The position numbers were made by a program, and so were the translations under genes. From Minisyncoccota bacterium (lineage in GTDB: Bacteria > Patescibacteriota > Microgenomatia > Levybacterales > UBA12049), in contig JANWIQ010000053.1 of NCBI GenBank assembly GCA_025449795.1, positions 1 through 37,457 of the forward strand: a DNA stretch of 37,457 nt, written 5' to 3'. Positions 1,876 through 35,690 of the stretch are shown one piece after another (positions within the stretch are counted from its first letter, which is position 1; each line of letters starts with the position of its first letter). The notes under the pieces are model-generated. The model was given only the letters and a program-made list of their open reading frames with translations. It made no database searches and was not told where the DNA came from.

Positions 1876-2724
1876 ATGCAAAAGAATAATGGCCATAAGG
1901 TTAGACATAGTTCCTTTATTGATCTCTCAGATTATGCTAGGCCAATTGCTGTCTGGATAGCATTACAATTAAAAACTACACGTATACAAGTCTATCAAAT
2001 AACACTACTCCATTTTTTTCTAATGGTTATTGCAGCAGCATTAATTGCAGTAGGTGGATTATCCAATATTCTAATTGCCTCTCTTCTTATTCTATTAAAA
2101 AACATTTTCGACGCTGTTGATGGTTCGCTTGCTAGAATTCGCAATCGACCTTCAAGGGTGGGAAGATTTTTGGATAGCAATCTTGATTTCGTAGGGAATT
2201 TATTTCTGTTTTTATCCGTTACGTACGTCCCACTATGGATACGTGTCTTTGGTTTTTTGAGTTTTGTCATTCAAGGGAGTTTTTTTAATTTCTATTATAT
2301 ACTTTTTCGTAATACCAACCATGGAGATACAACAAGTAAAGTTAACGAAGACGATCAAAGTAATTACAGTTATGATAATCGTTTTATTTTAAAGATTTTA
2401 TATTTCTTTTATAAAATCTTTTATAAATGGCAAGATGCATTTGTTTTAATTGCGGATAGAGTTATAGGAAAAAGGGGAAGAACGATACCTGCTGTATTTG
2501 TTTCCTTTTTGAGTGTTAATGGCTTGGGATTTCAATATCTAATTTTTATCTTACTATTGTCGTTGCACCAACAAATAATACTTTTTCTCTGGTTTACTAT
2601 ATTTATGAATATCTATTTAGTAATACTGTTAGCGTATTTTAGATTTTTTATACGATCCTACAGCCAATGCAGGAGAGGCAAAGAATATAGCAAAGTCTCG
2701 AAAGAGTACATCCAGCACATTTAG
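1876..2724 (+). CDS. CDP-alcohol phosphatidyltransferase-family membrane protein
   Basis: 282 aa with multiple hydrophobic helices. Full signature DAVDGSLARIRNRPSRVGRFLDSNLD (D-G-x2-A-R-x8-G-x3-D-x3-D). The ATG directly abuts the upstream stop. The non-hydrophobic C-terminal tail probably reads into the adjacent gene remnant. Confidence 0.8.
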   Translation: MQKNNGHKVRHSSFIDLSDYARPIAVWIALQLKTTRIQVYQITLLHFFLMVIAAALIAVGGLSNILIASLLILLKNIFDAVDGSLARIRNRPSRVGRFLDSNLDFVGNLFLFLSVTYVPLWIRVFGFLSFVIQGSFFNFYYILFRNTNHGDTTSKVNEDDQSNYSYDNRFILKILYFFYKIFYKWQDAFVLIADRVIGKRGRTIPAVFVSFLSVNGLGFQYLIFILLLSLHQQIILFLWFTIFMNIYLVILLAYFRFFIRSYSQCRRGKEYSKVSKEYIQHI

Positions 2725-3828: not shown

Positions 3829-5244
3829 CTACATGACATCCCCTATTTTTACGTTAAAGGGTATTTTGTACAATCCTCTGTCCATGCCATAATTAAGCCT
3901 ATTAAGAATAGAGGTAGGATATCCCAGAGATAGATAGTCTGCTTTTGGACGATAATATGCCTCTACAAAAGAGAATTTATCAAGAGTTCTGTACATTCTA
4001 TTGACTGCCTCCTCAACAGATTTTCCCGATCCGGTAATTGCGGCAATGGTGTCTCCATATCCGATATTTATAAGTTTTTTCCCTTTTTTCCTTACATCCC
4101 AGAGCCAAATATCTTTTTCTACCTCAGGGGTAAAATCAACGGTGAGTCCGCCGAGAATTTGCTGGGTTTCATTATCGCGATGCAAATTAAAAATTTTAAT
4201 TGAGGAAGCAACGGTCCCGAGAGTAAATGGGTTTTTCTTTTGCATAACTTTTTCAAAAAATTCATGCACACTTCCAGATTGGGCAAATTCAGTGAGTGAT
4301 GAATTATATCCTGGCCGATTTGGACAAAACTCTCCAAAATACATTTTTCCATCCCTTTTATTAATAAGGATGGAAGCATCCCAATAAAAAAGTCCCTTGT
4401 GCGCTTTGGCGAGCTCATCGACAATTGGGGGGAATGCAATTTCGTTGATCCTGTCATCGTCTGCAATGGGAAAAACCAAATCCGCAGCACAGCCCGTCTG
4501 AATAGAAATATTGCCACTCCCTAGCGGTTTATTCTCAATAAGGATAGATGACCCAAGTGGGACGCCGTCATAGTAAAGTTTTTCCGGCGTGACTTCCATG
4601 ACCGATGGAATAAGTAATTCTAAAATAAATCCTTCCGAGCCATAGGACGCAGCATCTTTATCCAATACTTCCATGACTTGTCGTGCTGCAAGTGATGGTT
4701 CGTCAACGTCCGGGACGAAAGCATTTGCGCCGTCGTTATTGCTTTTTAGCACCCATACCTCATCTGTCTCGCTTAAGAATTTTTTTGCATCCGAGATGCT
4801 GGTAAATTCTTTTTTGCGGGCAATATTTAATTTTGTGTAATATTTTTTAACAAATTCTTTTGCCTTATCCCGATCTGTTTCATATAAATAGTCTTCATGG
4901 GTTGGAAAATTTCCATGAAATCCCAGGTCTTTAATTTGTTCTGCAAGCGCATAGAGTCCGTTGGTATCAAAAAAAATAAAATATTCCTCTGGATTTTTGT
5001 ATGATTTCATTTCTTTGAGGAGTTCTTCTGCAGGTCTTTTTTTTAGCATGCCATCAAATATGGAAAGGCGTTGTTCTTTGTCCTGCTTCTCTTCAAGGAT
5101 ATATTCTGTTTCTTCCTCAGACGTAAGGGTTTCCGTATCATTCACTTGCGCAAGTACCACGTCTTGTCCCTCCATTTGTAAATGCTGGGCAATAGGTGTT
5201 CCTGATCCATCAAAAGTAAATACAATATATTTCATACAATACAA
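3829..5244 (-). CDS. ATP-grasp protein, phosphoribosylamine-glycine ligase (PurD)-like
   Basis: 471 aa. ENKPLGSGNISIQTGCAA resembles the PurD DHKR..DGDxGPNTGGMGA block, and GLFYWDASILINKRDGKMYFGEFCPNRPG resembles the PurD G.LY.GLM....GPKVLEFNCRFGDPE block. An alternative start is MKYIVF at 5235. Confidence 0.65.
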   Translation of the reverse strand: MYCMKYIVFTFDGSGTPIAQHLQMEGQDVVLAQVNDTETLTSEEETEYILEEKQDKEQRLSIFDGMLKKRPAEELLKEMKSYKNPEEYFIFFDTNGLYALAEQIKDLGFHGNFPTHEDYLYETDRDKAKEFVKKYYTKLNIARKKEFTSISDAKKFLSETDEVWVLKSNNDGANAFVPDVDEPSLAARQVMEVLDKDAASYGSEGFILELLIPSVMEVTPEKLYYDGVPLGSSILIENKPLGSGNISIQTGCAADLVFPIADDDRINEIAFPPIVDELAKAHKGLFYWDASILINKRDGKMYFGEFCPNRPGYNSSLTEFAQSGSVHEFFEKVMQKKNPFTLGTVASSIKIFNLHRDNETQQILGGLTVDFTPEVEKDIWLWDVRKKGKKLINIGYGDTIAAITGSGKSVEEAVNRMYRTLDKFSFVEAYYRPKADYLSLGYPTSILNRLNYGMDRGLYKIPFNVKIGDVM

Positions 5245-5321: not shown

Positions 5322-5735
5322 TTATGCTGCTTGCAGCATGCCAACGTGGTTACCCTCTGGGTCTTCAAATGAGACATAGCGTCCAACTCCAGGAATGTCA
5401 TCAATGGTATCAGGGCCTTTTGACCCGCCAAGAATTTTCCCACCTGATGCTTGTACCCTTTCCATAGCTTCTTCAAGATTGTCTACAGAGATTACCAAAT
5501 GTGGCATATTAAAGCCTTCCCTATCTTGATAATCAAAAAATCCTCCATTAATTGCGCCGGGTGTCTTGGGCATACGATTTTCACCCGTTTCTGTTGTCGC
5601 TGCCATGAGGTAATTTCCCATTTCAGGACCCATTAATGTCATCTGCCAGCCAAATGTGGAAGAGTAAAAGTCAGAAGCTCGTTTTTTGTCTTTCGCCGGC
5701 ATTTCAAAATGGACAACCGGATTCATTTTCGCCAT
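5322..5735 (-). CDS. VOC (glyoxalase/bleomycin-resistance/dioxygenase) family protein
   Basis: Start trimmed to MAKMNPVVHFEMPAKD (ATG at 5735). The pattern ...FY...FGW.......Y.......GGF........VISVDNLEEA...V.A.GGKI...........G.....F.DPEGN..G is typical of the VOC family. Confidence 0.8.
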   Translation of the reverse strand: MAKMNPVVHFEMPAKDKKRASDFYSSTFGWQMTLMGPEMGNYLMAATTETGENRMPKTPGAINGGFFDYQDREGFNMPHLVISVDNLEEAMERVQASGGKILGGSKGPDTIDDIPGVGRYVSFEDPEGNHVGMLQAA

Positions 5736-5828
5736 ATACACACTATCGCAGATACATTGTGAGAAATCAATAGGAAAACTGCGTTTCCCTTTACAACAAT
5801 CTATGGAATTTGATACAGTATACATAAT

Positions 5829-6221
5829 ATGTTTACTCCCCTTGCAACATTCTCCGGTTTCTCGGTAAATAGTTTGGAAAAAGCAAAAGAATTTTATGAG
5901 CAGACACTTGGTGTAGAAGTGGAAGATACCAAAGGTATGGGACTGAAATTGCATTTACCTGGCGGCAGTACTCTTTTTGTGTATGAAAAAGAAAACCATA
6001 CGCCGGCAACGTATACCATACTCAATTTTATTGTAGCAAATATTGATGAAGCAGTAGACACACTTTCCCAAAAAGGTGTGAAATTTGAAAGATATGAAGG
6101 CATGCCATTTACCCAAGACGAAAAAGGTATTGCCAGAGGACTAAAAAATGGCATGGGTCCTGATATTGCATGGTTTACTGACCCCGCTGGAAATGTATTG
6201 TCTGTACTGCAGGAAAAATAA
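5829..6221 (+). CDS. VOC (glyoxalase) family protein
   Basis: 130 aa. FSVNSLEKAKEFYEQTLG...NFIVANIDEAVDTLSQKGVKFE...WFTDPAGNVLSVLQ. Divergent from the neighbouring VOC gene. Confidence 0.8.
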   Translation: MFTPLATFSGFSVNSLEKAKEFYEQTLGVEVEDTKGMGLKLHLPGGSTLFVYEKENHTPATYTILNFIVANIDEAVDTLSQKGVKFERYEGMPFTQDEKGIARGLKNGMGPDIAWFTDPAGNVLSVLQEK

Positions 6222-6295: not shown

Positions 6296-7444
6296 CTATA
6301 GCCGGGACCGCGCTTGGTTTGCGTTAAATCTAATTGCCCAACGTCTCAGAAGTCCGTTATCTGTTATATTGAGCTCAGGAGTTATGTGTCTGCTGTCTTC
6401 TGTTAGTAGAATCTCATTAAGGGTTGGAGGCTTCTCGCCATAGACTGCATACCGCATTTGGATTGAATGAAGAAGCCCAAAAAAATCATGTGCGAGGTCT
6501 GAAATTGGTCTATTGGTTCCTTGTACTCGTAGTCCAACATCAAGCACTTTTATGTGATACTGATAAGGTAGTTGGCTATTGCCTTTTCGAGATCCTTCTC
6601 GCACAATCACCACATTATCTCGACCATGAAGGTCGAAATCTAAATTGTATTTATTTATCAAATCGCTTCTTAACTTACAATATTGTTCATATTCAGTTTG
6701 CAATGCTTCTAGTGCAGTATTATCCGAATTTTTTAGAGCAGCAACTTCATTGAGAGTCATAATAGTTTCATTGGGTATTTCTGGCATGATATGAATTGTT
6801 CTATTCAAAGGGATGTGTAAAAAATTACGAAATGAAACATGCCTAATTATTTGCGGAGTGGGTATGAGATTTGGTAAATCAAATATATTCATTTCTTCTT
6901 GTAGTACATCCAAATTATGATTTAGTTCATCTGCATGTTTCGGGTTGCTAGGATTTAAGAAAAATTTAGGGTCTGGGGAAAATTTTGCTCCCAGTTTTAC
7001 TACATATGACCTGTCGCCAGCGTGAAATCTATATACTAGTGAATTCCATCCTTTTCCCACGTACGTAATATCACCATATCTTGTATCAACTCCTCTTCTT
7101 GTAGAGCGTTCAGAAATTTCTCCAAAAATCTCTTGATATTCATTTGTGTCTTTTTCTCCATGGTCTTCCATGTACTTTTTGACTGCATCGAGTGCATGTA
7201 CGACAGTTTGCGTTCTGATATGTTCTTCAATAATTGGTGCTCTTTCCCAAACAGGAATTTTTCGAAAAAGTGCAAGGAGTGAATAGAAACCTCCCTCCAC
7301 TGCATTTGCTCCAAGCCCGATTCCAAAATGTTGCAATGGGCTCTGTCTTCGCTGCGTTAATTTGGGCCGCGGAGGATACGAAGGTGGCCGCACTATTGGT
7401 TTTTCTACGGTAGGTGCTCCCATAAGATAAGCCCATAATACCAC
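6296..7444 (-). CDS. Uncharacterised protein with a protein-kinase-like fold signature; probable N-terminal membrane anchor
   Basis: 382 aa from a GTG start. Glycine loop plus lysine in YVGKGWNSLVYRF...SYVVKL. Catalytic-loop-like DLHGRDNVVIV. DFG-like IKVLDVGL. The hydrophobic segment continues upstream of the called start (see findings). Confidence 0.55.
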   Translation of the reverse strand: MVLWAYLMGAPTVEKPIVRPPSYPPRPKLTQRRQSPLQHFGIGLGANAVEGGFYSLLALFRKIPVWERAPIIEEHIRTQTVVHALDAVKKYMEDHGEKDTNEYQEIFGEISERSTRRGVDTRYGDITYVGKGWNSLVYRFHAGDRSYVVKLGAKFSPDPKFFLNPSNPKHADELNHNLDVLQEEMNIFDLPNLIPTPQIIRHVSFRNFLHIPLNRTIHIMPEIPNETIMTLNEVAALKNSDNTALEALQTEYEQYCKLRSDLINKYNLDFDLHGRDNVVIVREGSRKGNSQLPYQYHIKVLDVGLRVQGTNRPISDLAHDFFGLLHSIQMRYAVYGEKPPTLNEILLTEDSRHITPELNITDNGLLRRWAIRFNANQARSRL

Positions 7445-7518
7445 CGCAAGTAAGAAAAAGCAAAAAAATCTTAGAGTGTTTTCTGGAAAACAAATGACAA
7501 ATAGTATAAAATCTCTGA

Positions 7519-8580
7519 ATGAGAAGTCCAGATACTATAGTGCGCAACACGGAACAACCTGAAACAGGCGTACCCCCTTTATTTACACATATTGCTAGAA
7601 TGCAGGGAATAGCAATGGAAAATGGAATTTTACCAATTATGGTTGGTGGATGCTGGGATCGGCTTCTTGGCGACAAGTCTACTATTTTGCCTGAAGACTA
7701 CGATCCTCTTACCCATGAGCTCATTTTGCGAAATCCTGCACAAGCTACTGCGATACGCAAAGAAAACGGTACGATAGTAGATTTTGATGCCTGGGCTATT
7801 CCCTATTCACATAAAGATGGAATAGTTGATTATCCCACCTATGAAGAAGGGTACAATTTTCCTCTAGAAGAAAGGTTAGCAGCAGTACAAAAAGCGATAC
7901 GTGAAAATGAACCTTCATCAGAAAGTGCAAGCGAAGTCTGGCCAAGACCATCATTCGAACGTATTTTTTATACGCCCCAGCCTCTTGGTAAACGCCTGAG
8001 AAGAAGATTTGGTAGAGGAATACACAGTTTTGTCCCAAAATTTAATGGAGATTTGGAAATTAGGCCACCACGTGAAGATGCAAGAGGTAGGTTTTTTTAT
8101 AGATTTGGTGGACTTGTAACAGAGAGTGGCGTAGAGCAGGAAATTAGGCTCGACTCATATGAGATTGTTAAGCTACAAGTTGCTACAACAAGTGCTTCTG
8201 GGGATTTAAAAGTTTCTGATGAATTTGTGTATGCACTTACTCCAAGGGCGCTTTTAGAAAGATATTTAGGTTCTCGGGGAAATGGTCAGATTAAATCCAC
8301 TGATTTGAGAAGGGTTGGTCCCCATGCCAATATGAGAAGGATTGCGCAAGAATTTGACACTGCATATGATAGCGCAACAGGGCGAGAAAGAGCAAGTATT
8401 GAACGCTTTAAGGAGTGGGATGATTATGTCAGACAGCTTGAAGAAACAAGCGTATTTAATCACCCATTGATATGGTTAAAAAGGCAAATTTATTATCTAT
8501 TTTGGCGCCTCCCTTTAGGAAAAAAAATTGCAAATAGCGAAAGATTTGCGGGTAGTGACGTTTCAGTTTCGGGTCAATAA
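7519..8580 (+). CDS. Hypothetical protein, possibly a nucleotidyltransferase fold (ANT(2'')/Lnu-like GGW..D.LLG motif)
   Basis: 353 aa. ENGILPIMVGGCWDRLLG ... GTIVDFDAWAI recalls the GGWGVDALLG...H.DIDI signature, but with a ~35-aa insertion. The true start may be the internal MQGIAMENG. Confidence 0.5.
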   Translation: MRSPDTIVRNTEQPETGVPPLFTHIARMQGIAMENGILPIMVGGCWDRLLGDKSTILPEDYDPLTHELILRNPAQATAIRKENGTIVDFDAWAIPYSHKDGIVDYPTYEEGYNFPLEERLAAVQKAIRENEPSSESASEVWPRPSFERIFYTPQPLGKRLRRRFGRGIHSFVPKFNGDLEIRPPREDARGRFFYRFGGLVTESGVEQEIRLDSYEIVKLQVATTSASGDLKVSDEFVYALTPRALLERYLGSRGNGQIKSTDLRRVGPHANMRRIAQEFDTAYDSATGRERASIERFKEWDDYVRQLEETSVFNHPLIWLKRQIYYLFWRLPLGKKIANSERFAGSDVSVSGQ

Positions 8581-8660
8581 ACTAAAAACACAAAAATAAC
8601 ATAATTAATAAGGTCCTAGAGTTTGAAAATGTATGCTAATTGTGGTAATATGCAAAAGAC

Positions 8661-10745
8661 ATGAGTGAAGTAATTAAAGTCGATCCAAGGCCCTTAAGTC
8701 ATGAAAGTTTTTTTAGTGAGAGAATTAGTTTGGGTAAGCAATTGCGTGTAGTCGCTCTGGATTTAGAGGGAATAGAGACGGGCGGAAGACATCTGGGAGA
8801 GAATGTAAGAAAAATAAGAGACATAACAACACGAGAAAAGATTCCTCTTATTGTTTCAACTGAATCAACATATCATGAAGCGAAGCAGCAATTAGGAATT
8901 ATGAACCTTCCAGTAGTCGCCTTACTTACGGAATTCGGGACAAGAATTTATTATTCAAACCAAAGTAGAGAGCTAGTTGAGGATAAAGGCTGGCAAGAGA
9001 AGTTAGAAAATAGAGAAGTAATCATTAATGGCGTATCGCATACTTGGGGTCATGGAAAGGCAAAAGGTGCCATAGTAGCTATTATAAATGATCTTCCTGA
9101 TCTGAATTTAAAACCGCCAAGTGGTGAGAATAATTTTCTTGTAAAATTTCAAGTTTCTTCAACAAGAGCTGATGAAGTCTTAAAAAAATTAAAAATTAAG
9201 ATACAAGGAGCAAAGATTACTTATGTCAAAGATCCAGACAATACAAACAGTACTACTTTTGCAATAATTCCAGATATTGCTGGAAAAATTGCAGCCTTAA
9301 CTCTAATTGAAAATGTCGTAGGCGAAAGTAAAGAAACAATAAATTTTGCATATTTTGAACATGGAACAAGTGATATTATTGCTAACGTAAATCCTCAAAT
9401 TCATCTTCAAGAGTTTTGTTCCAAATTAGAGGAGTCAGATGTCCTAAAAAGGTATAGCATAGCTCATGCGTATCCTCCCATCCAATTAGTGAAACCTCCA
9501 ATTGAGTCTTTAAGTGCATATTTGCATGAGACAACAGATGGTGACCCAAATGCGCTCCATGCAGGTCAAGAAGCAGGAAGAAGGAGTAGGTCTGAGTTTT
9601 TGTTGAGAATTGCTGAATTATTACATCTTGCTCCGGAGGGTTTGTCTGCAAACGGCTTGAGCGTGCTTGGGGCAAGGCTAGTGAGGGATGCAGCAACTGA
9701 AGGATTTATGACAAACCAATGGGGATTGCCACAGTACTACAAATATCTTAAGGGGCTTTTTATGGATGCAATGGATGGGTATAGGGCTGGCAAAAGAAAA
9801 GAAAAAAGTCCACTTGGTGGAATTACAGATTTGGCACAAGATAGGAATGAAGAGTGGTATTTTATGCTTTTAGAGGCCATCCATTTTTGGGACAGTAAAA
9901 GCTCTAGAAGAGAAGCTATGCACAGCGTTAAAGATAGGGATAATTTTATTACCGGTTTATTATCCTCTGAGGCAACTTTTTTACCAACAATTGCTGCTGC
10001 TCAGGCGAGGATGTTTGGAGGTCTTGTTAAGGAATCAAATCCTTATGGAGGCCCACTTGTGAGAAAGTATGGAGCCGGTTCTCGACCTGACAGAGTTATT
10101 AAATTATTTGGCACGACAACTATAGGGAGATCCAATGCTGCAAGAGAAATGAAAAAACTTAAAACAAATTTACTTCAAGCGTTTACCTATAGAAGCGAAA
10201 TGACACAGCTTGCTAGGAAAAATTTAGCCGATGCAACGTCTTTTAATATTGATTCTGTTGATCCATTGGATTTTAAAAATGCATCTAATTCTCAAAGAGA
10301 AAATATAGCGATTTGGATGGTGATGGTTGAATCTTTACAAAGGGCACATGAGGTGACAGTAAGAATTTTACAAGAAGCTGTGGAAGGGGGAAAAATTAAT
10401 CAGGATATCGTCAATGAATTTATTAAAGAATCACAGATACAAAATGGACAATATCTTATCGTTGATATAAAAGTATTGCAGGAAAAATGGCATGATGCTT
10501 TTTATGATCCAAAAGAGCCAGGAAATGAAACATTTGATTTTAGGAGATATGCCCATTTGCTTCCGGAGAGTTTACTTGAATTACCAACAGAACCAGGAAA
10601 AATGTTTAATCCTTTCTTTGGAATACTTCCGCCTATAAGATCTGTAAGAGAACAAACCCGTATTATTTCAAGTGATGTTGCAATTACCGATGGAAAGCGT
10701 TATGTTTCTTCGACTAGACGCGGCCGGAGAAGTCCTGCTTTCTAG
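8661..10745 (+). CDS. Large two-part protein: N-terminal HAD-IIB/sucrose-phosphatase-like domain plus a region carrying a CDP-alcohol phosphotransferase signature
   Basis: 694 aa. HAD-like motifs VVALDLEGI (motif I with the second Asp replaced by Glu), PLIVST, AGKIAAL and a degenerate EHGTSD. At aa 372-394, DGYRAGKRKEKSPLGGITDLAQD equals D-G-x2-A-[G]-x8-G-x3-D-x3-D. No obvious TM helices. Confidence 0.65.
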   Translation: MSEVIKVDPRPLSHESFFSERISLGKQLRVVALDLEGIETGGRHLGENVRKIRDITTREKIPLIVSTESTYHEAKQQLGIMNLPVVALLTEFGTRIYYSNQSRELVEDKGWQEKLENREVIINGVSHTWGHGKAKGAIVAIINDLPDLNLKPPSGENNFLVKFQVSSTRADEVLKKLKIKIQGAKITYVKDPDNTNSTTFAIIPDIAGKIAALTLIENVVGESKETINFAYFEHGTSDIIANVNPQIHLQEFCSKLEESDVLKRYSIAHAYPPIQLVKPPIESLSAYLHETTDGDPNALHAGQEAGRRSRSEFLLRIAELLHLAPEGLSANGLSVLGARLVRDAATEGFMTNQWGLPQYYKYLKGLFMDAMDGYRAGKRKEKSPLGGITDLAQDRNEEWYFMLLEAIHFWDSKSSRREAMHSVKDRDNFITGLLSSEATFLPTIAAAQARMFGGLVKESNPYGGPLVRKYGAGSRPDRVIKLFGTTTIGRSNAAREMKKLKTNLLQAFTYRSEMTQLARKNLADATSFNIDSVDPLDFKNASNSQRENIAIWMVMVESLQRAHEVTVRILQEAVEGGKINQDIVNEFIKESQIQNGQYLIVDIKVLQEKWHDAFYDPKEPGNETFDFRRYAHLLPESLLELPTEPGKMFNPFFGILPPIRSVREQTRIISSDVAITDGKRYVSSTRRGRRSPAF

Positions 10746-10752
10746 ATAGCTA

Positions 10753-12291
10753 CTATATCTCCATTGGGTGCTCCATCTCAATATCCTTTGCAGTTGCAAA
10801 ATCCCTTTTGCTTTCTTTGACAAAAAGTGCTGCCAATCCCCCAATAATCATAAAGAAAATTGCCCAGTGGAAGACGGTTGCATAGGCATTGATATTTGCT
10901 TTTGTCGCCATGAGCGCAAAAATTTCTCCAAGCAGTTGTGGAGATGTCGTATGAATGGTTGAGTATTTTTGAATTTGCAAGAGGTTTGCGGTAACGCTAT
11001 TTGACAACACTGTTGCAAAAATTGCCGTCCCAAATGCGCCCGCAATATTTCTCGCAAGCGCAAGGACCGAGGACGCAATGCCTACCTCGTGAAGAGGGAC
11101 AGTATTGGTGGCAGCCTGGGTAAGAGGTGCCAGGCCAATACCAAGCCCAAATGCCATAATAAAAAGCCGCCAGATAATATCCCACTCAGTCCAACGAATA
11201 TCTATGCCAGAGAAAAGATAAAAGGCAAATGCTGCAGTAAGCATGCCTGCTGCCGTAAGAAAACGTGGCGGCATTTTGGTGGATAGCCGTGCTCCAATTT
11301 GTGCTGCTATGGCAATAGCAAATGCCATAGGAATAAAGAGAAGCCCTGTTTTGGTAACAGAATACCCCAAATATGTCTGGGCAAAAAGAGGAATAAGAAA
11401 AATTCCCCCAATCATGCCCATGAAAGACAAAAAAGAAGTAATAATAGAGGCAGTAAAGGTAGCATTTTTGAAAAATTTCAAATCCACAACCGGTTCTTTC
11501 TGTCTTTGTTCTACCAAAATAAATAAGACAAATGTTGCGATAGAGACAATATAAGACAGGATACTTTTTCCATCTATCCAGCCCCAGCTTTGTCCCTGAT
11601 CGAGGACAAGCACCATACTTCCAAGGGCAATACCCAAGAGTACAGAGCCAAGGACATCGAAATTCTTCAGGCCTCTAATTTTTTTCACTGGCTCCTCGAT
11701 ATATTTAAAAGCCAAAAACGTCCCAATAGCCCCAAGTGGTACATTCACATAAAATACCGAGCGCCATCCAAAGGTATCAATAAGTGGGCCTCCTAAGAGT
11801 GGACCAAATACCGCGGCTGCAGCAAAGACTGCAGACCATATGCCCATTGCCTGTGCTCTTTTGCCTTTGTCCTCAAAGGTAAAGGCAATGATAGAGAGTG
11901 CAATCGGATAATCGATGGAGACAATAATTGCCTGCAGGACACGAAATACCAAAAGAGAAGATAAATTAAAAGAAAAGCCGGCAAGTACAGAGGCAATGGT
12001 AAAGCCGACAATCCCCCAAATATAGAGAATTTTTCTTCCCATCATATCTCCCAATTTGCCAAATACCGGGACAAAAATTGCATTTGCAATAATGTAGGCA
12101 GTGGAAATCCAGCTTGCTTGAGTAACGGTAATACCAAAGTCGATAATAATTTTAGGAAGTGCCAAATTTACAATGGTCCCATCCAGTCTTCCGAGAAAAG
12201 ACCCTAGCATAAGGGTTGCAAGGATAATCCATTCGTGGGACTGAAAGCCTTTTTGAGAAGTGGAAGTAGGAGAAGTAGTTGTTTTCTTCAT
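10753..12291 (-). CDS. MFS transporter, DHA2 (EmrB/QacA-type, 14-TMS) drug:H+ antiporter
   Basis: 512 aa. LDGTIVNLALPKI, GKLGDMMGRK and WRSVFYVNVPLG are DHA2 hallmarks. About 14 hydrophobic segments. Confidence 0.9.
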   Translation of the reverse strand: MKKTTTSPTSTSQKGFQSHEWIILATLMLGSFLGRLDGTIVNLALPKIIIDFGITVTQASWISTAYIIANAIFVPVFGKLGDMMGRKILYIWGIVGFTIASVLAGFSFNLSSLLVFRVLQAIIVSIDYPIALSIIAFTFEDKGKRAQAMGIWSAVFAAAAVFGPLLGGPLIDTFGWRSVFYVNVPLGAIGTFLAFKYIEEPVKKIRGLKNFDVLGSVLLGIALGSMVLVLDQGQSWGWIDGKSILSYIVSIATFVLFILVEQRQKEPVVDLKFFKNATFTASIITSFLSFMGMIGGIFLIPLFAQTYLGYSVTKTGLLFIPMAFAIAIAAQIGARLSTKMPPRFLTAAGMLTAAFAFYLFSGIDIRWTEWDIIWRLFIMAFGLGIGLAPLTQAATNTVPLHEVGIASSVLALARNIAGAFGTAIFATVLSNSVTANLLQIQKYSTIHTTSPQLLGEIFALMATKANINAYATVFHWAIFFMIIGGLAALFVKESKRDFATAKDIEMEHPMEI

Positions 12292-12300
12292 ATAATTCCT

Positions 12301-12394
12301 GGGTCCTGCCGCTCGTAAAACTCGCAGTGCTTACTCCCTGCGCTATACAGCTTGTGGTCGTTGCGCCCCTGTTAGCATTTTACTCGCGTCACCC
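12301..12394 (-). repeat. Divergent (94-nt) member of the structured element family found at 19333 and 21642
   Basis: It shares both termini with the other copies: GGGTCCTGCC at the gene-proximal end and ACTCGCG..CACCC at the distal end. It has its own internal hairpin (CGCAG-GGAGUAAGCA-CUGCG in gene sense). It ends 9 nt upstream of the MFS ATG. Confidence 0.5.
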
Positions 12395-12445
12395 ATCAAT
12401 CTATTAACCCGTTATTCCTAAATCTTAAATCATAATTCCTACTTC

Positions 12446-13084
12446 TTATTTGGTATTGGTGAAGATGGTCATCTTGGCAGACATGCCTTGTTTTATTTGC
12501 GGATACGTACTGCTGTTAAAGGTTGCGTAGACAACAAATTGTTGAGTAGGACGCTCCGAAGAGATGGAAAATGTCGCTTGGGTTGTTTTGGCAGCAGGGC
12601 TAATTTCATCCACATACCCCCAAAATGTTTGTCCAGGGAGTGCATCCACGGTAAAAGAAACTACTTGGCCAAGAGCTATATCACTGAGCCCTTTATTTTC
12701 ATCGATGGTGCCGGCAATTCTCGTATTTGCAGGATTAATAAGTTGGGCAACTGGATTTTGGCTACTCACAGTACTTCCTATTTGGTTATTTGCCATCACC
12801 ACAGTGCCACTCACCGGTGCAGGAATTGTCTGTCCGTCAACAATTGCGACCGTATCTCCTTTTTTGACAACTTCCCCTTCATAGACATCAAGCTCTTGTA
12901 AAGTGCCAGGATTGGTCGGAGAAAGGGAGCTTACCGGACTTTGCACCAGAGAATCGTCGATAAAGACTCTGCCCATGTCCAACTCTATAAAGATAATTCC
13001 TCCTACTGCAAGAATAAGGATAAGTAATCCAATAAGTACTCGTACTATTTTTGGATTTTTTATGTGTGAGAATAATTTTTTCAT
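12446..13084 (-). CDS. HlyD-family membrane fusion protein (short form)
   Basis: 212 aa. N-terminal TM (VRVLIGLLILILAVGGIIFI) and a lipoyl-like hairpin (VVKKGDTVAIVDG). Overlaps the upstream MFP gene by 4 nt. Confidence 0.75.
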   Translation of the reverse strand: MKKLFSHIKNPKIVRVLIGLLILILAVGGIIFIELDMGRVFIDDSLVQSPVSSLSPTNPGTLQELDVYEGEVVKKGDTVAIVDGQTIPAPVSGTVVMANNQIGSTVSSQNPVAQLINPANTRIAGTIDENKGLSDIALGQVVSFTVDALPGQTFWGYVDEISPAAKTTQATFSISSERPTQQFVVYATFNSSTYPQIKQGMSAKMTIFTNTK

Positions 13085-14181
13085 AGTGCGTTATATTTGT
13101 CTGCGGCAACGATTTGCGGATTGGTAATAATGGCATCTTGGGAAGTTAGGCCGCTGACTATTTCGGTAAGGGCATCATGCGTTTTTCCAAGCACTACATT
13201 TTTTAGCACTGCTTTATTATTTTCCAAAACCCATACTGCAGTATGGCCTACGATTGTCCACGTTGGGACAAGAATGGTTGCTTGTTTTGCATTGCTTTCG
13301 ATCGCCACAACGCCTGTCTGTCCTAATTTTGCAATGTTGTTTATGGGTTGGGCTGTGACATCCACCACATAGACATCTTCCCCATCCGGGAGTGTTACTT
13401 TTTGTGGATAAATTTTACTTACGATACCGGTGAGTTTGGTTGTTGACCCAGTGAGTTGTACGTGGGCCTGTGCTCCAACACTTACAAAATCAATATCTTC
13501 TGCAGAAATATTTGCCTTCATGAGAAGCTGCGTTGGGTCCGCGAGAAAAAATGCTGTTGCCGGAGTAACATTTTGGTTGGGGGTGGTGATATCCTCACTC
13601 ACCAATACACCACTAAAAGGAGCAGAAAGTGTGGCAAGCTGGAGGGCATAATTTGCCAATTGTACATTAATTACCGAGTTATTGAGGGTGGATTGGTTTT
13701 GGTCCAGAATTCGTTTTACTGCATCGTTAATCGCATTATTTTGGGAGTCTCCACCAAGAGAAGACTGGTTGTATATATTGAGAGTATTTTTTTGGCCCAG
13801 TTGGAGGACGCCGGTTTGGGCATTTGCCTGTCCCTGGTCGAATGCATCCCGTGTGGATTGGTAGTTGTTGAGCGCTTGGGTGAGCTGCTGTTGTAATATG
13901 TAGGTATCGAGTTGTGCAATGGTTGCGCCTTGTGCTACCGCGTCTCCTTCCTTAAAAGGAAGATAGGTCACTTTTCCGCCTGTTTGGAAGTGCAATGTTG
14001 CTTCTTGGGATGAGTGAATTGTTCCACTTCCAACAATTGTCTCGCCAACTTGTTTGACAGCGATGGTTGTGGTGGCGTGTTGCAGGGAGGTTTTGGTAAG
14101 TTTGTCCAGAAGCACGTGAGTAGCAGACAGTGCAATGATGACAACTAGCATAAGGCCAGCGATGTAGGTCTTATTTTTCAT
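13081..14181 (-). CDS. Efflux-transporter periplasmic adaptor (HlyD/MFP family)
   Basis: 366 aa. N-terminal TM, KEGDAVAQGATIAQLD lipoyl motif, coiled-coil Q-rich middle and a beta-barrel C-terminus. Confidence 0.8.
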   Translation of the reverse strand: MKNKTYIAGLMLVVIIALSATHVLLDKLTKTSLQHATTTIAVKQVGETIVGSGTIHSSQEATLHFQTGGKVTYLPFKEGDAVAQGATIAQLDTYILQQQLTQALNNYQSTRDAFDQGQANAQTGVLQLGQKNTLNIYNQSSLGGDSQNNAINDAVKRILDQNQSTLNNSVINVQLANYALQLATLSAPFSGVLVSEDITTPNQNVTPATAFFLADPTQLLMKANISAEDIDFVSVGAQAHVQLTGSTTKLTGIVSKIYPQKVTLPDGEDVYVVDVTAQPINNIAKLGQTGVVAIESNAKQATILVPTWTIVGHTAVWVLENNKAVLKNVVLGKTHDALTEIVSGLTSQDAIITNPQIVAADKYNAL

Positions 14182-14608
14182 ATACTCTTTCTATTGTAGC
14201 AATCATTTTTTGTAAAATCCGCAGTAAATCACTTTTGTCCTCGGTAGACAAATGGGATAGAAAAACTTGCATTTTTTTGGTTCTTTCTTTTATCGCGTCT
14301 TTAAAAAGCTTTTCTCCTGATGTGGTAAGGTTGATGCGTACCAATCTTCTATCTTTTGGATCTGTTTTTCGGGCAACGAGCTTTGCATTTACCAGCGTCT
14401 TGATACTGCTTGTTGCAGAAGGTAATTCTATCTTAAATTTCGCAGCAATATCACTCATCTGGCACGTAGGAGTTTTGGCAATAAAAACAAGCGTTTGTAG
14501 TTGGAGAAAAGTCAAATTGCCAACTTTGGAATGGATGGCCATTTGGTCTTTCATAAGCCGGGAAAGAGTAAACATCTCCTCAATTAGTTTGGTTGTTTGG
14601 GTATCCAT
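14171..14608 (-). CDS. MarR-family transcriptional regulator
   Basis: 145 aa. LTFLQLQTLVFI....CQMSDIAAKFKIELPSATSSIKTLVNAKLVARKTDPKDRRLVRINLT is the canonical MarR wHTH. Confidence 0.9.
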   Translation of the reverse strand: MDTQTTKLIEEMFTLSRLMKDQMAIHSKVGNLTFLQLQTLVFIAKTPTCQMSDIAAKFKIELPSATSSIKTLVNAKLVARKTDPKDRRLVRINLTTSGEKLFKDAIKERTKKMQVFLSHLSTEDKSDLLRILQKMIATIERVYEK

Positions 14609-31372: not shown

Positions 31373-32059
31373 ATGCCAGGTAGATTGGTTCCTTTGGTGA
31401 AAGGTGAAATGTATCATGTATTTAACCGGGGCATAAATAAGCAGATCATCTTTACCTCACAAAGAGATTACCGGAGAGTACTTGAAGTACTTGAATTTTA
31501 TTCCTATAAGAAGCCTCGCCTAAGTTACTCCAAATATTTACTATTGCATCCTGAAAGCCAACAATTATTTTTTGAAGAATTACGAGAAAGTGGCGAAAAG
31601 ATAGTTGAAATAATTTCTTACTGTTTTATGCCTAACCATTTTCATTTGCAGCTTCGTCAATTAGATGAAAATGGTATATCTATATTTTTAGGTAACCTAC
31701 AGAATAGTTACACGCGCTACTTTAATACGAAGTATCACAAAATTGGACCACTACTTCAAGGAAGATTTAAGGCAATTTTAATTGAAAATATGTTTCAGTT
31801 ACTTCATGTTTCTCGATATATTCATCTCAATCCTTACTCCTCAGGTATTTGCCAAACAGCGGAAGATCTTTTGAAGTATCCTTGGTCTTCCTTGGGGGAA
31901 TATATTGCAGATAGCAATACTACCTCGCTCTGCACAAAAAGGGATGTTCTTTCAGAATTTAATGCATCAAGTTATAAGGATTTTGTTTTAGATCAAGCAG
32001 ACTATCAAAGAGAATTAGACCAAATAAAACACGTGTTGCTTGAAGATGAAGATTTTTGA
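31373..32059 (+). CDS. Y1 (HUH) transposase, IS200-like / RAYT family
   Basis: 228 aa. YHVFNRGINKQIIF, HUH motif CFMPNHFHLQL, catalytic-Tyr block VSRYIHLNPYSSGI, and YPWSSLGEY. This is the typical Y1_Tnp/RAYT pattern. Confidence 0.85.
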   Translation: MPGRLVPLVKGEMYHVFNRGINKQIIFTSQRDYRRVLEVLEFYSYKKPRLSYSKYLLLHPESQQLFFEELRESGEKIVEIISYCFMPNHFHLQLRQLDENGISIFLGNLQNSYTRYFNTKYHKIGPLLQGRFKAILIENMFQLLHVSRYIHLNPYSSGICQTAEDLLKYPWSSLGEYIADSNTTSLCTKRDVLSEFNASSYKDFVLDQADYQRELDQIKHVLLEDEDF

Positions 32060-35351: not shown

Positions 35352-35435
35352 GCCGCGGTGGTGAAATGGTATACACGGAGGCCTTAAGAGCCTTTGTCCT
35401 TATACGACGTGCGAGTTCGAGTCTCGCCCGCGGCA
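35352..35435 (+). tRNA. tRNA-Leu (anticodon UAA), class II long variable arm; no encoded CCA
   Basis: Hand-folded. Acceptor GCCGCGG/CCGCGGC, D stem GUG/CAC, anticodon arm GAGGC-CUUAAGA-GCCUU, T arm GCGAG-UUCGAGU-CUCGC, discriminator A. Confidence 0.9.
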
Positions 35436-35458
35436 CACACCTGGTAAAATATATACAA

Positions 35459-35532
35459 CGGGGATTAGCTCAGTTGGCTAGAGCGCGCGGTTTGGGACCG
35501 TGAGGTCGGAAGTTCGAGTCTTCTATCCCCGA
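35459..35532 (+). tRNA. tRNA-Pro (anticodon UGG); no encoded CCA
   Basis: Acceptor CGGGGAU/AUCCCCG, D arm GCUC-AGUUGGCUA-GAGC, anticodon arm CGCGG-UUUGGGA-CCGUG, T arm GGAAG-UUCGAGU-CUUCU. Confidence 0.9.
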
Positions 35533-35537
35533 CACAT

Positions 35538-35612: not shown

Positions 35613-35614
35613 CT

Positions 35615-35687: not shown

Positions 35688-35690
35688 CAG

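What the first reader, a model, noticed from the sequence alone, without database searches (positions are those of the whole stretch)
6296..10745. Lower-GC trio of large orphan proteins that all carry phospho- or nucleotidyl-transfer signatures
Three adjacent genes carry recognisable catalytic motifs in unusual contexts: one on the minus strand, divergent from two on the plus strand. The first is protein-kinase-like (GKGWNSLVY...VVKL, DLHGRDN, LDVG). The second is ANT(2'')/Lnu-like nucleotidyltransferase-like (GGCWDRLLG ... VDFD). The third is a 694-aa HAD-IIB-like protein with a CDP-alcohol phosphotransferase signature. Together they suggest a pathway that activates and transfers a phospho-alcohol or nucleotide onto a substrate. 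Candidates are an envelope polymer, a lipid head group or a xenobiotic. The last option fits loosely with the MarR/MFS efflux operon next door. By eye the block is more AT-rich than its right-hand neighbours. I recognise no described system with this composition.
Basis: partly seen in the sequence, partly recalled or inferred. Interest (0 to 1): 0.7.

Follow-up and report, generated by a model that had tools for sequence, protein, structure and literature searches.

The report
Kinase plus membrane-less CDP-alcohol phosphotransferase module
Three neighbouring unannotated genes form a rare gene module that recurs in other uncultured bacteria: a stripped-down kinase-like protein, a protein of unknown fold, and a fusion of a phosphatase domain with the catalytic core of a lipid-headgroup transferase that, unlike every described relative, has no membrane-spanning segments.

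Summary
The three ORFs and every quoted motif are at the stated coordinates. The low GC is only a mild GC3 dip.

- **Not true orphans.** An exhaustive HMMER search found 14 distant relatives of the 694-aa protein (C).
- **Linkage.** In 15 informative loci, a homologue of the first gene (A) lies next to the C homologue in 12 and a homologue of the second gene (B) in 6. Both are present in 3 and neither in 1. No other neighbour is shared with the window.
- **C.** It is an N-terminal HAD-IIB (S6PP-type) domain fused to a domain carrying the class I CDP-alcohol phosphotransferase signature. The signature residues are the invariant columns of the family. All 15 PDB matches of the domain profile are such enzymes, best CHPT1/CEPT1. 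No family member has a predicted transmembrane helix.
- **A.** It has a protein-kinase-like fold (moderate-confidence model) with invariant Lys, Asn and DxG.
- **B.** Its fold is undetermined, so the Lnu/ANT reading is unproven.

My best reading is a Kennedy/Lic-like route: a kinase makes a phospho-alcohol, it is activated as a CDP-alcohol, and C transfers it, with a phosphatase step. This pathway is inferred, not shown.

The window's own C has altered phosphatase motifs and an Arg-to-Gly change in the signature. The MarR/MFS link is not conserved. I rate it a new variant of known kinds.

The parts
6296..7444 (-). Gene A: 382-aa (NCBI aa) minimal protein-kinase-like protein, transcribed divergently from B and C
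   Evidence: ORF. AF2 model pLDDT 69.2, pTM 0.67. Foldseek top hits are all kinase-fold proteins. Eleven homologues are aligned. No Pfam, NCBIfam, PADLOC or PDB-sequence hit.
6989..7057 (-). A: Gly-rich-loop-like GKGWNSLVY (res 130-138) and beta3-lysine-like VVKLG (res 148-152; K150 invariant)
   Evidence: Coordinates. V148, K150 and G152 are invariant and G132 nearly invariant in the family. Predicted strands at 120-145.
6533..6640 (-). A: catalytic-loop-like DFDLHGRDNVVIV (res 269-281; D/E271, N277 invariant) and DFG-like YHIKVLDVG (res 296-304; D302 and G304 invariant)
   Evidence: The D-to-N spacing is +6, not the +5 I recall for canonical kinases (own knowledge, not tested here).
7445..7518 (.). 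A/B divergent intergenic region (74 nt) with weak promoter-like matches on both strands
   Evidence: Promoter-like sites are not enriched over shuffles (11 found against 15.1 expected), so this is weak evidence only.
7519..8580 (+). Gene B: 353-aa protein of undetermined fold, recurrently linked to C homologues
   Evidence: ORF. Homologues are in L001 (BLASTP E=9e-6), L007, L011 and L024 (HMM hits). L009 has a C-terminal fragment matched by eye only, with no HMM hit. AF2 pLDDT 36. No family or fold hit.
7636..7971 (+). B: conserved IMVGGCWDRLLG (res 40-51, V42/G43 invariant), IVDFDAW (res 86-92, D88/D90 invariant) and PSFERIFY (res 144-151, E147/Y151 invariant). This is compatible with a G...DxD...E nucleotidyltransferase-type site but does not prove one.
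   Evidence: hhalign against the Lnu family aligns the GG segment, but P=0.06.
8661..10745 (+). Gene C: 694-aa fusion of HAD-IIB phosphatase, CDP-alcohol-phosphotransferase-like domain and conserved C-terminal helical region, with no predicted TM helix
8733..9530 (+). C: HAD-IIB (S6PP/Cof-type) domain. Motif I is LDLEGI (8757-8774; D34 kept, D+2 is Glu, Thr is Ile). Motif II Thr lies in VSTES (8853-8867). Motif III Lys lies in IAGK (9276-9287). Motif IV is FEHGTSD (9354-9374; relatives have FGDxxxD).
   Evidence: Pfam S6PP E=1e-7. TIGR02471 and TIGR01485 hits are below cut-off. The profile hits MPGP 1xvi at 6e-5 and SPP 1s2o. Motif comparison, coordinates.
9591..9872 (+). C: region homologous to the N-terminal catalytic part of class I CDP-alcohol phosphotransferases. 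It includes LSANGLSVLG (9642-9671) and the signature D369xxD372G373xxA376[G377]x8G386xxxD390xxxD394 (9765-9842).
   Evidence: NCBIfam archaetidylinositol-phosphate synthase E=0.005, res 311-404. Motif. The invariant family columns are the signature residues. All 15 PDB hits of the domain profile are CDP-alcohol phosphotransferases.
9873..10520 (+). C: family-conserved C-terminal region. It holds LPTIAAAQAR (9981-10010), R478 in GSRPDR (10077-10094) and R511. It is hydrophilic and has no detectable homology to TM4-6 of the canonical enzymes.
   Evidence: L441 is invariant and R478 and R511 are invariant or nearly so. GRAVY of res 300-694 is -0.45, against +0.45 for the membrane CDP-OH transferase at 1876-2724.

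Best explanation
**Shown.** Genes A, B and C form a rare, conserved functional module whose core is C.
- C combines a HAD-IIB phosphatase domain with a catalytic domain descended from class I CDP-alcohol phosphotransferases. That domain keeps the metal- and CDP-binding signature but has lost all membrane-spanning helices. It is therefore probably a cytoplasmic or at most peripheral enzyme.
- A is a minimal atypical kinase of the protein-kinase-like fold.
- B is a conserved partner of unknown fold.

**Inferred mechanism: a Kennedy/Lic-like route.**
1. A phosphorylates an alcohol with ATP.
2. The phospho-alcohol is activated as a CDP-alcohol. B may do this. In other genomes a cytidylyltransferase encoded elsewhere, or the CarS-like protein that fills B's slot, may do it instead.
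3. C's transferase domain moves the phospho-alcohol from CDP onto a hydroxyl acceptor and releases CMP.
4. The fused phosphatase either removes a terminal phosphate from the product or makes the free-hydroxyl acceptor. The first option parallels the PIP, PGP, DIPP and sucrose-6-phosphate two-step syntheses.

Because C is hydrophilic, the product is more likely a soluble phosphodiester or a modified macromolecule than a bulk membrane lipid.

In the window's own C the phosphatase motifs I and IV are altered (DxD to DxE; GD to EH) and the signature Arg is Gly. This copy may have weakened or changed activity.
For: **Linkage.**
- There are 15 informative distinct loci. A homologue of A lies next to the C homologue in 12 and a homologue of B in 6. 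Both are present in 3 (window, L001, L011). Neither is present in 1 (L023).
- Only A, B and C are shared between the window and the other loci.
- Arrangements differ: A divergent from C; B then C on one strand, with a 4-nt overlap in L024.

**C.**
- Pfam S6PP is above cut-off. Among 13 relatives, 10 hit S6PP, 6 hit Hydrolase_3 and 9 hit PF01066.
- The invariant family columns are D369, D372, G373, A376, D390 and D394, plus R375, R395 and E398.
- All 15 PDB hits of the C-terminal-domain profile are CDP-alcohol phosphotransferases. The best are CHPT1/CEPT1 at E=6e-4, with the alignment running from the 'PN-IT-llG'-like segment through the signature.
- No family member has a sustained hydropathy peak: one single 19-residue window reaches 1.64, in the fragment P0004, and no other window exceeds 1.6. 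GRAVY is -0.45.

**A.** Kinase fold with invariant K150, N277 and D302xG304.

**Precedents.**
- The signature and roles of D1-D4, and PIP synthesis followed by a separate phosphatase step: PMC4634129.
- An NTP transferase + CDP-alcohol transferase + HAD cluster, with a transferase-HAD fusion: PMC9246714.
- Kennedy pathway composition: established knowledge.
Against: - No substrate, donor or acceptor is identified.
- B's fold is unknown, and Pol-beta-type nucleotidyltransferases are not the usual makers of CDP-alcohols (own knowledge).
- Most main-clade loci lack B nearby.
- Only the first 100 or so residues of the transferase fold are detectably homologous.
- The PDB E-values are modest (6e-4). 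The window protein itself reaches only E=0.005 against one NCBIfam model, below its cut-off.
- The absence of TM helices rests on Kyte-Doolittle hydropathy only.
- A's model is of moderate quality (TM-scores 0.26-0.34). Its Asp-to-Asn spacing is atypical and its Gly-rich loop is not conserved.
- The window's C has substitutions at positions that are catalytic in both of its domains.
- Many main-clade loci are closely syntenic, so they do not count as independent observations.
Confidence: 0.5

Rival explanations
1. **Peripheral lipid-headgroup enzyme.** C docks on the membrane and uses CDP-diacylglycerol (or transfers onto diacylglycerol) to make or remodel phospholipid headgroups of the PI, PG, PC or PE type. 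The HAD domain acts as the PIP/PGP-type phosphatase or as a lipin-like phosphatidate phosphatase. A acts as a lipid or headgroup kinase. This would be useful to reduced-genome bacteria that scavenge lipids.
For: - Nearly all characterised class I enzymes act on lipids (PMC4634129).
- The best PDB matches are CHPT1/CEPT1, PI synthase and PIPS.
- L005/L006 carry a CarS-like/CTP_transf_1 membrane protein in the slot between MGMT and A, where L011 has B.
- BacA is a conserved neighbour in the main clade.
- There is one moderately hydrophobic conserved helix, 'SCILPSIARAQAE'.
- Two of the seven MAGs are labelled Patescibacteria.
Against: - No TM helix is predicted in any member, and the C-terminal half is hydrophilic (GRAVY -0.45).
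- The window already encodes a canonical membrane CDP-OH transferase at 1876-2724.
- The S6PP/MPGP-type HAD domains I know of act on soluble sugar phosphates (established knowledge).
- BacA and CarS-like are absent from the window and from L001.
Confidence: 0.25
2. **Xenobiotic or antibiotic modification.** A is an APH-like phosphotransferase and B an ANT/Lnu-like nucleotidyltransferase. Together they inactivate a small molecule, in cooperation with the adjacent MarR/MFS efflux system.
For: - APH(9) and NahK are among A's fold hits.
- B has a GG...DxD motif, and hhalign places its GG segment on the GG segment of Lnu(A).
- The MarR-HlyD-HlyD-MFS operon ends 8 nt from C's stop codon.
Against: - The efflux operon is not conserved next to the module in any other locus.
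- B against Lnu is not significant (P=0.06, probability below 1%).
- The conserved core of the module is C, whose domains are biosynthetic in type.
- There are no PADLOC or resistance-family hits.
Confidence: 0.07
3. **Effector or signalling module, or pseudo-enzymes.** A is a protein kinase or pseudokinase that regulates C, or that acts on a host or partner cell. C's domains serve binding or regulation rather than catalysis. This would apply at least to the window's copy, by analogy with the non-catalytic SPP-like domain of sucrose-phosphate synthase.
For: - Most of A's fold hits are eukaryotic-type protein kinases.
- The window's C has DxE and EH substitutions in HAD motifs I and IV and an Arg-to-Gly change in the signature.
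- C's best NCBIfam hit is the SPP-like domain of sucrose-phosphate synthase.
- The family is very sparse and divergent.
Against: - The four signature Asp residues, and the HAD motifs in the other members, are strictly conserved, which argues for catalysis in the family.
- A lacks the activation segment and substrate-binding C-lobe of protein kinases: only about 45 residues follow DxG in the main clade.
- By eye, none of the three N-termini looks like a signal peptide.
- In the main clade the module sits among housekeeping genes.
Confidence: 0.13

Closest known systems
Kennedy (CDP-choline/CDP-ethanolamine) pathway and its terminal enzymes CHPT1/CEPT1; bacterial Lic pathway (LicA kinase, LicC cytidylyltransferase, LicD phosphotransferase)
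   Same: The logic is the same: a kinase of the protein-kinase-like fold, then CDP activation, then transfer of the phospho-alcohol from CDP. The best PDB matches of C's catalytic domain are CHPT1/CEPT1 (E=6e-4 to 8e-4). They share the segment before the signature, 'DG-x-ARR' and 'G-(E/Q)-L-x-D'.
   Different: CHPT1/CEPT1 are polytopic membrane proteins; C has no TM helix. A matches no choline-kinase/APH profile. B is not a recognisable cytidylyltransferase of either known soluble type. C carries an extra HAD domain. The substrates are unknown.
Two-step prokaryotic syntheses through a phosphorylated intermediate: PIP synthase + PIP phosphatase, archaetidylinositol-phosphate synthase, IPCT/DIPP synthase, PGP synthase + phosphatase
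   Same: They share the D1xxD2GxxAR...GxxxD3xxxD4 signature (PMC4634129). A phosphatase step follows the transferase step, which gives a rationale for the HAD fusion. C has a weak NCBIfam hit to archaetidylinositol-phosphate synthase. DIPP synthase shows that this fold can handle purely soluble substrates.
   Different: All of these are integral membrane proteins. The phosphatases identified so far are of other families, for example the PgpA-like BT_1525 (PMC9246714). No inositol-phosphate synthase lies near the module. Homology beyond about 100 residues is undetectable.
Putative 'alternative' inositol-lipid cluster of Bacteroides/Prevotella (NTP transferase + CDP-alcohol phosphatidyltransferase + HAD hydrolase; transferase and HAD fused in Prevotella veroralis)
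   Same: The gene content is a nucleotidyltransferase-like protein, a CDP-alcohol transferase and a HAD hydrolase, and a transferase-HAD fusion is on record (PMC9246714).
   Different: That cluster sits beside MIPS, its functions are unconfirmed, and its nucleotidyltransferase has a recognised NTP-transferase domain. Here there is no MIPS, B has no recognisable domain, a kinase is the most constant partner, and the transferase domain lacks TM helices. Sequence relatedness to those proteins was not tested.
Sucrose-phosphate synthase/phosphatase and mannosyl-3-phosphoglycerate phosphatase (HAD-IIB, S6PP family)
   Same: C's N-terminal domain belongs to this family (Pfam S6PP above cut-off; 1xvi at 6e-5 and 1s2o). 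They also set the precedent of a synthase fused to an SPP-like domain.
   Different: The partner synthase here is a CDP-alcohol transferase, not a glycosyltransferase. The window's copy has non-canonical motifs I and IV.
Minimal or atypical protein-kinase-like kinases (WaaP, APH(9), NahK, RIO/Bud32-type)
   Same: The fold matches. The conserved Lys, Asn and DxG are present. The C-lobe is short, with no activation segment.
   Different: No profile-level similarity to any Pfam, NCBIfam or PDB kinase sequence. The Asp/Glu-to-Asn spacing is +6. The Gly-rich loop is degenerate in most members.

Membership tests
Class I CDP-alcohol phosphotransferases (Pfam PF01066) | Signature D1xxD2G1xxAR...G2xxxD3xxxD4, eight conserved residues (PMC4634129) | tested here: met
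   The window's C has DAMDGYRAG-x8-GGITDLAQD at res 369-394, which is 7 of 8 residues (Arg is replaced by Gly). Most relatives have all 8. The signature residues are the invariant or nearly invariant columns of the family alignments.
Class I CDP-alcohol phosphotransferases (Pfam PF01066) | Profile-level sequence homology to the family | tested here: met
   The match is marginal in strength but specific. All 15 PDB hits (E<=1) of the C-terminal-domain profile are family members, best 5.9e-4. Nine of 13 relatives hit PF01066, best 2.7e-5. The window protein alone reaches only E=0.005 against an AIP-synthase model, below its cut-off, and has no PF01066 hit.
Class I CDP-alcohol phosphotransferases (Pfam PF01066) | Integral membrane protein with the signature on TM2-TM3 (PMC4634129) | tested here: not met
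   The window's C has no 19-residue window with Kyte-Doolittle hydropathy above 1.6. Among the 13 family members there is a single such window, 1.64 in the fragment P0004. GRAVY of C res 300-694 is -0.45, against +0.45 for the canonical enzyme at 1876-2724, which has several TM-like segments. No dedicated TM predictor or structure model was run.
Class I CDP-alcohol phosphotransferases (Pfam PF01066) | Metal-dependent transfer of a phospho-alcohol from a CDP-alcohol with release of CMP | not testable with these tools
   Needs enzyme assays.
HAD superfamily, subfamily IIB (S6PP / Cof type) | Profile match above the curated threshold | tested here: met
   PF05116 gives 32.2 bits against a cut-off of 20.3. 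Ten of 13 relatives hit S6PP and 6 of 13 hit Hydrolase_3. The PDB profile hits 1xvi and 1s2o.
HAD superfamily, subfamily IIB (S6PP / Cof type) | Catalytic motifs: I DxDx(T/V), II S/T, III K, IV (G)DxxxD | tested here: not met
   The window's C has motif I D34-L-E36-G-I38 and motif IV E-H-G-T-S-D238; motif II Thr and motif III K209 are kept. The relatives have canonical DxDGT and FGDxxxD. The family therefore meets the feature but the window copy does not meet it fully.
Protein-kinase-like (PKL) superfamily | Bilobal kinase fold | tested here: met
   AF2 with a 10-sequence alignment gives pLDDT 69.2 and pTM 0.67. Foldseek against the PDB gives 69 hits at E<=1e-3; the top 50 are all PKL proteins, including APH(9), NahK and WaaP. 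TM-scores are only 0.26-0.34 and rmsd is high.
Protein-kinase-like (PKL) superfamily | Conserved ATP/Mg residues: beta3 Lys, catalytic-loop Asp...Asn, DxG Asp | tested here: met
   K150, N277, D302 and G304 are invariant, and position 271 is Asp or Glu, in 11 homologues. The Asp-to-Asn spacing is +6, and the Gly-rich loop is conserved only in the window/L001 branch.
Protein-kinase-like (PKL) superfamily | Membership of a described kinase family by sequence profile (Pkinase, APH, choline kinase, RIO, Kdo/WaaP and others) | tested here: not met
   There are no Pfam hits for any of 11 members at E<=10 other than noise. NCBIfam, PHROGs and PADLOC give nothing. The family profile against PDB sequences gives nothing.
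Pol-beta-type nucleotidyltransferases, Lnu / ANT(2'') group | hG[GS] ... DxD ... third carboxylate on successive strands | tested here: inconclusive
   G43, D88, D90 and E147 are invariant in 4 homologues. In the low-confidence model they fall at or near strand ends. The G-to-DxD distance is about 45 residues, much longer than in Lnu(A), where GG and DID are about 17 residues apart (sequence).
Pol-beta-type nucleotidyltransferases, Lnu / ANT(2'') | Profile or fold similarity to the family | tested here: not met
   hhalign of the B family against Lnu(A), Lnu(C) and a Streptomyces homologue gives P=0.063 and probability 0.9%; negative controls give P=0.66-0.8. No Pfam or PDB hits. The model has pLDDT 36 and Foldseek finds no hit at E<=1e-3. 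The negative result is weak because the alignment has only 4 sequences.
Bacteroidetes 'alternative' inositol-lipid cluster (PMC9246714) | Clustered with myo-inositol-phosphate synthase; NTP-transferase-domain protein present | tested here: not met
   Twenty-nine of the window's larger ORFs were scanned against Pfam and none hits an inositol-phosphate synthase or NTP_transferase domain. B has no domain hit.

The most novel reading that the evidence does not exclude
[quoted passage not shown] In this branch the catalytic helices were recast into a water-soluble domain, fused to a HAD-IIB phosphatase, and paired with a dedicated minimal kinase. Together they would make a soluble phosphodiester metabolite, or phospho-alcohol-modify a macromolecule, in uncultured bacteria.
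Probability: 0.4. Interest if true: 0.75.

Novelty: new variant of a known kind. Interest (0 to 1): 0.6.

Why it matters
- **A membrane fold that may have become soluble.** Class I CDP-alcohol phosphotransferases make most phospholipid headgroups and are described as transmembrane enzymes (PMC4634129). A natural branch that keeps the full catalytic signature without membrane helices would show how such a fold can become soluble. It would also be far easier to express, crystallise and engineer, for example for enzymatic synthesis of phosphodiesters from CDP-alcohols.
- **A route to function.** The fusion to a phosphatase and the constant pairing with an unannotated kinase family outline a compact pathway. 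Its substrate could be found directly by assays.
- **Annotation.** Three protein families now labelled 'hypothetical' in MAGs (labelled Patescibacteria and others) would gain testable annotations.
- **If C proves inactive or an ordinary peripheral lipid enzyme.** The finding then reduces to a divergent member of known families.

Tried and rejected
**Searches that found nothing**
- Word-indexed homologue searches for all three proteins returned only self hits.
- A genome-collection scan with C alone found nothing.
- A metagenome scan with the window and L001 A alignment found only L001's own contig.
- PADLOC and PHROGs gave nothing meaningful, so a defence-system or phage origin was dropped.
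- Single-sequence PDB searches for A, B and C gave only noise: antibody, gp120 and designed repeat proteins.
- Family profiles of A and B against PDB sequences gave nothing.
- Pfam on every A and B family member gave nothing.
- BLASTP of C's C-terminal half against the window's own membrane CDP-OH transferase showed no significant similarity.

**Structure work**
I worked around this by looking the homologues up to obtain protein ids. One look-up call was wasted on wrong minus-strand coordinates.
- B's structure model was too poor to use (pLDDT 36), and its Foldseek output is noise.

**Other tests**
- hhalign of B against the Lnu family was contaminated in the first run by a wrong-frame Nonomuraea ORF. 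The clean run was not significant.
- The first alignment given to the genome scan was too divergent to yield search patterns.
- Horizontal transfer inferred from low GC was rejected, because the GC and GC3 of the trio lie within the spread of the window's genes.
- Promoter and terminator scans were not above the shuffled expectation.

Full report
**1. The observation**

The window is a whole 37,457-nt NCBI contig.
- A: 6296-7444(-), 382 aa (NCBI aa).
- B: 7519-8580(+), 353 aa.
- C: 8661-10745(+), 694 aa.

Every quoted motif is present. The claim of lower GC is weak:
- Gene GC is 0.376-0.411, against a window gene mean of 0.412 (sd 0.037).
- GC3 is 0.26-0.28 (z -1.2 to -1.5). That is below the efflux genes on the right (0.37-0.41).
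- Four other genes in the window have equally low or lower GC3.

I see no compositional evidence for a foreign island.

**2. Orphan status**

Pfam, NCBIfam, PADLOC and PHROGs give nothing credible for A or B. The word-indexed search of 5.8 billion proteins returned only the window's own proteins.

The exhaustive HMMER search of 1.84 billion cluster representatives found 14 distant relatives of C (E from 1e-16 to 6e-4, 24-35% identity). Most are 570-720 aa with the same two-part architecture. The family is real but very sparsely sampled. A metagenome scan for close relatives of A recovered only one already-known contig.

**3. What C is**

*N-terminal part.* Residues 46-215 match Pfam S6PP (HAD-IIB) above the gathering score. 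The family profile hits mannosyl-3-phosphoglycerate phosphatase 1xvi (6e-5) and sucrose phosphatase 1s2o.

*C-terminal part.*
- Residues 369-394 read D-AM-DG-YR-A-G-x8-G-GIT-D-LAQ-D. This is the class I CDP-alcohol phosphotransferase signature D1xxD2GxxAR...GxxxD3xxxD4 (definition in PMC4634129), with Gly in place of the Arg.
- In a 13-sequence family alignment the invariant columns are D369, D372, G373, R375, A376, D390, D394, R395, E398 and L441. These are the signature plus a few flanking residues.
- Nine of 13 members hit Pfam PF01066.
- A profile of the C-terminal domain alone matches 15 PDB sequences at E<=1, and all 15 are class I CDP-alcohol phosphotransferases. The best are CHPT1/CEPT1 (6e-4). 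PI synthase, PIPS, DIPP synthase, PS synthase, PgsA and AF2299 follow. The alignments run from the 'PN-IT-llG' segment through the signature.
- The homology covers only about 100 residues.

*The surprise: no membrane segments.*
- The described enzymes are transmembrane, with the signature on TM2-TM3.
- Neither C nor any relative has a transmembrane-like hydropathy segment. Kyte-Doolittle 19-residue windows never exceed 1.6, apart from one single window of 1.64 in the fragment P0004.
- C's residues 300-694 have GRAVY -0.45. The canonical membrane CDP-OH transferase in the same window (1876-2724) has +0.45 and several TM-like peaks.
- One relative, P0010 (843 aa), carries the domain twice in tandem.

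*The window's copy is atypical in its family.*
- HAD motif I is D-L-E-G-I instead of DxDGT.
- HAD motif IV is F-E-H-G-T-S-D instead of FGDxxxD.
- The signature Arg is Gly.
- Its phosphatase, and perhaps its transferase, may be weakened or repurposed.

**4. What A is**

Homologues of A were found next to C homologues (see section 6). In 11 sequences F107-G108-E109, V148, K150, G152, P165-S166, P197-Q198, N277, H297, D302 and G304 are invariant, and position 271 is Asp or Glu. This is the Lys / Asp...Asn / DxG pattern of ATP-dependent kinases of the protein-kinase-like fold. The Asp-Asn spacing is one residue longer than I recall for canonical kinases.

An AlphaFold2 model with a 10-sequence alignment reached pLDDT 69.2 and pTM 0.67. 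Foldseek against the PDB gave 69 hits at E<=1e-3, and the top 50 are all kinases of this fold:
- Eukaryotic-type protein kinases: RIPK2, IRE1, Wee1, PAK, SRPK and PKR.
- Small-molecule or sugar kinases: APH(9), NahK and WaaP.

TM-scores are low, 0.26-0.34.

Main-clade members are only about 275 aa, with about 45 residues after DxG. There is therefore no room for an activation segment or a protein-substrate lobe. I conclude that A is a minimal atypical kinase, more probably acting on a small molecule than on a protein. It belongs to no described kinase family by sequence.

**5. What B is**

B has recognisable homologues in L001 (BLASTP E=9e-6), L007, L011 and L024. A fragment at the start of L009 resembles B's C-terminus by eye, but the B profile did not detect it. 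V42, G43, R80, D88, D90, P142, E147 and Y151 are invariant in the four aligned sequences.

This is compatible with the G...DxD...E arrangement of Pol-beta-type nucleotidyltransferases, but I could not confirm it:
- No Pfam or PDB-sequence hits.
- The model has pLDDT 36, and its Foldseek output is noise.
- hhalign against verified Lnu(A), Lnu(C) and a Streptomyces homologue aligns the GG segment only. It gives P=0.063 and probability below 1%, against P=0.66-0.8 in the controls.

B's fold stays open.

**6. Linkage**

I fetched the DNA around the C homologues:
- L001-L009 and L022-L024 by exact-protein look-up.
- L010-L016 by a genome scan.

I then searched six-frame ORFs with profiles of A, B and C.

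| Loci (15 informative, distinct) | Count | Which |
|---|---|---|
| A homologue beside the C homologue | 12 | Usually divergent with a gap of about 40-50 nt; B lies between A and C in the window and L001 |
| B homologue present | 6 | Window, L001, L007, L009 (fragment, by eye), L011, L024 |
| Both A and B | 3 | Window, L001, L011 |
| Neither | 1 | L023 |

In L024, B overlaps C by 4 nt.

The main clade shows extensive background synteny (BacA - MazG-like - MGMT - A - C - ClpB), so those loci are not independent. The window, L001, L022, L023 and L024 have quite different surroundings. A, B and C are the only proteins the window shares with any other locus, apart from one generic MFS match 4-6 kb away.

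In L005/L006 a CarS-like/CTP_transf_1 membrane protein sits in the slot between MGMT and A. L011 has B in that slot. This is a hint, no more, that B's role is tied to CTP-dependent activation.

**7. How it most likely works**

*Shown:*
- The domain identities of C.
- The kinase fold of A.
- Conservation of the catalytic residues.
- The gene linkage.

*Inferred: a Kennedy/Lic-like sequence.*
1. A phosphorylates an alcohol.
2. The phospho-alcohol is converted to a CDP-alcohol, by B or by an enzyme encoded elsewhere.
3. C's transferase domain passes the phospho-alcohol to an acceptor hydroxyl and releases CMP. D1-D3 bind metal and D4 acts as base, as in PIPS.
4. The fused HAD domain either removes a terminal phosphate from the product or produces the free acceptor. 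The first option parallels PIP, PGP, DIPP and sucrose-6-phosphate.

Three observations favour a soluble CDP-alcohol donor and a soluble or macromolecular product:
- The closest structural relatives are CHPT1/CEPT1.
- The HAD domain is of the sugar-phosphate type.
- The protein is hydrophilic.

I give this reading about 0.5. The rivals are:
- A peripheral lipid-headgroup enzyme, 0.25.
- An effector, regulatory or pseudo-enzyme module, 0.13.
- Xenobiotic modification, 0.07. The MarR-HlyD-HlyD-MFS operon next door is real but is not conserved with the module.

**8. Comparison with what is known, and novelty**

The composition is not unprecedented:
- The Kennedy and Lic pathways have the same three-step logic (established knowledge).
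[quoted passage not shown] The last two are fused in Prevotella veroralis (PMC9246714).

What I could not find described, in four full-text literature searches:
- A CDP-alcohol phosphotransferase-type domain without membrane helices.
- Its fusion to an S6PP-type HAD domain.
- Its constant pairing with an unannotated minimal kinase family.

The literature library is incomplete, so absence there is weak evidence.

I rate the finding a new variant of known kinds, with moderate to high interest (0.6). The main uncertainties are these:
- The 'soluble' claim rests on hydropathy alone.
- B's fold is unknown.
- No substrate is identified.
- The window's own copy of C looks partly degenerate.
- The organism of the window was not identified.

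Noticed in passing
window 1876-2724 (+): A canonical membrane CDP-alcohol phosphatidyltransferase lies only 6 kb from the module. It hits Pfam PF01066 at E=6.7e-12, has the signature DAVDGSLARx8GRFLDSNLD and has several TM-like segments. Its gene has the lowest GC in the window (0.322). It served as an internal contrast for hydropathy.
   Followed up: partly
window 3829-5244 (-): A 471-aa ORF with only weak, sub-threshold similarity to PurD/ATP-grasp (TIGR00877 E=2e-7, 30 bits against a cut-off of 288; GARS_C E=0.015). It may be another poorly characterised ATP-grasp ligase. No homologue was seen next to the module in other loci.
   Followed up: no
window 5322-5954 (-) and 5829-6221 (+): Two divergent glyoxalase/bleomycin-resistance-family genes whose mechanical ORFs overlap. 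The Pfam match on the minus-strand ORF begins at residue 80, so its true start is probably the Met at about nt 5732.
   Followed up: no
window 10753-14608 (-): A MarR-like regulator (14171-14608), two HlyD-type adaptor genes (13081-14181 and 12446-13084) and an MFS transporter (10753-12291) form one minus-strand operon. It is convergent with C, and its end lies 8 nt from C's stop codon. It is not conserved beside the module elsewhere.
   Followed up: partly
L005 4173-6704 and L006 5751-8282 (protein P0010, 843 aa): This relative carries the HAD domain followed by two tandem copies of the CDP-alcohol-transferase-like domain. Canonical enzymes of this family are dimers (own knowledge), so the tandem copies could form a pseudo-dimer.
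   Followed up: no
L005 2753-3307 (+) and L006 4331-4885 (+) compared with L011 3605-4450 (+): A 184-aa CarS-like/CTP_transf_1 membrane protein sits between MGMT and the A homologue in L005/L006. L011 has a B homologue in that slot.
   Followed up: partly
L010-L016 (record titles): The MAGs carrying closely syntenic loci (BacA - MazG-like - MGMT - A - C - ClpB) are labelled 'uncultured Gammaproteobacteria', 'Patescibacteria group' and 'Candidatus Eisenbacteria'. Some of these taxonomic labels are probably wrong.
   Followed up: no
L024 9153-10004 and 10001-11701 (+): The B homologue's stop overlaps the C homologue's start by 4 nt, which suggests translational coupling of B and C.
   Followed up: no
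window 31373-32059 (+): A low-GC (0.342) ORF with an IS200-like Y1 transposase domain (PF01797, E=4e-6). It may be a domesticated or REP-associated tyrosine transposase.
   Followed up: no
window 35352-35688 (+): A tight cluster of four tRNA genes: Leu-TAA, Pro-TGG, Gly-TCC and Arg-TCT.
   Followed up: no
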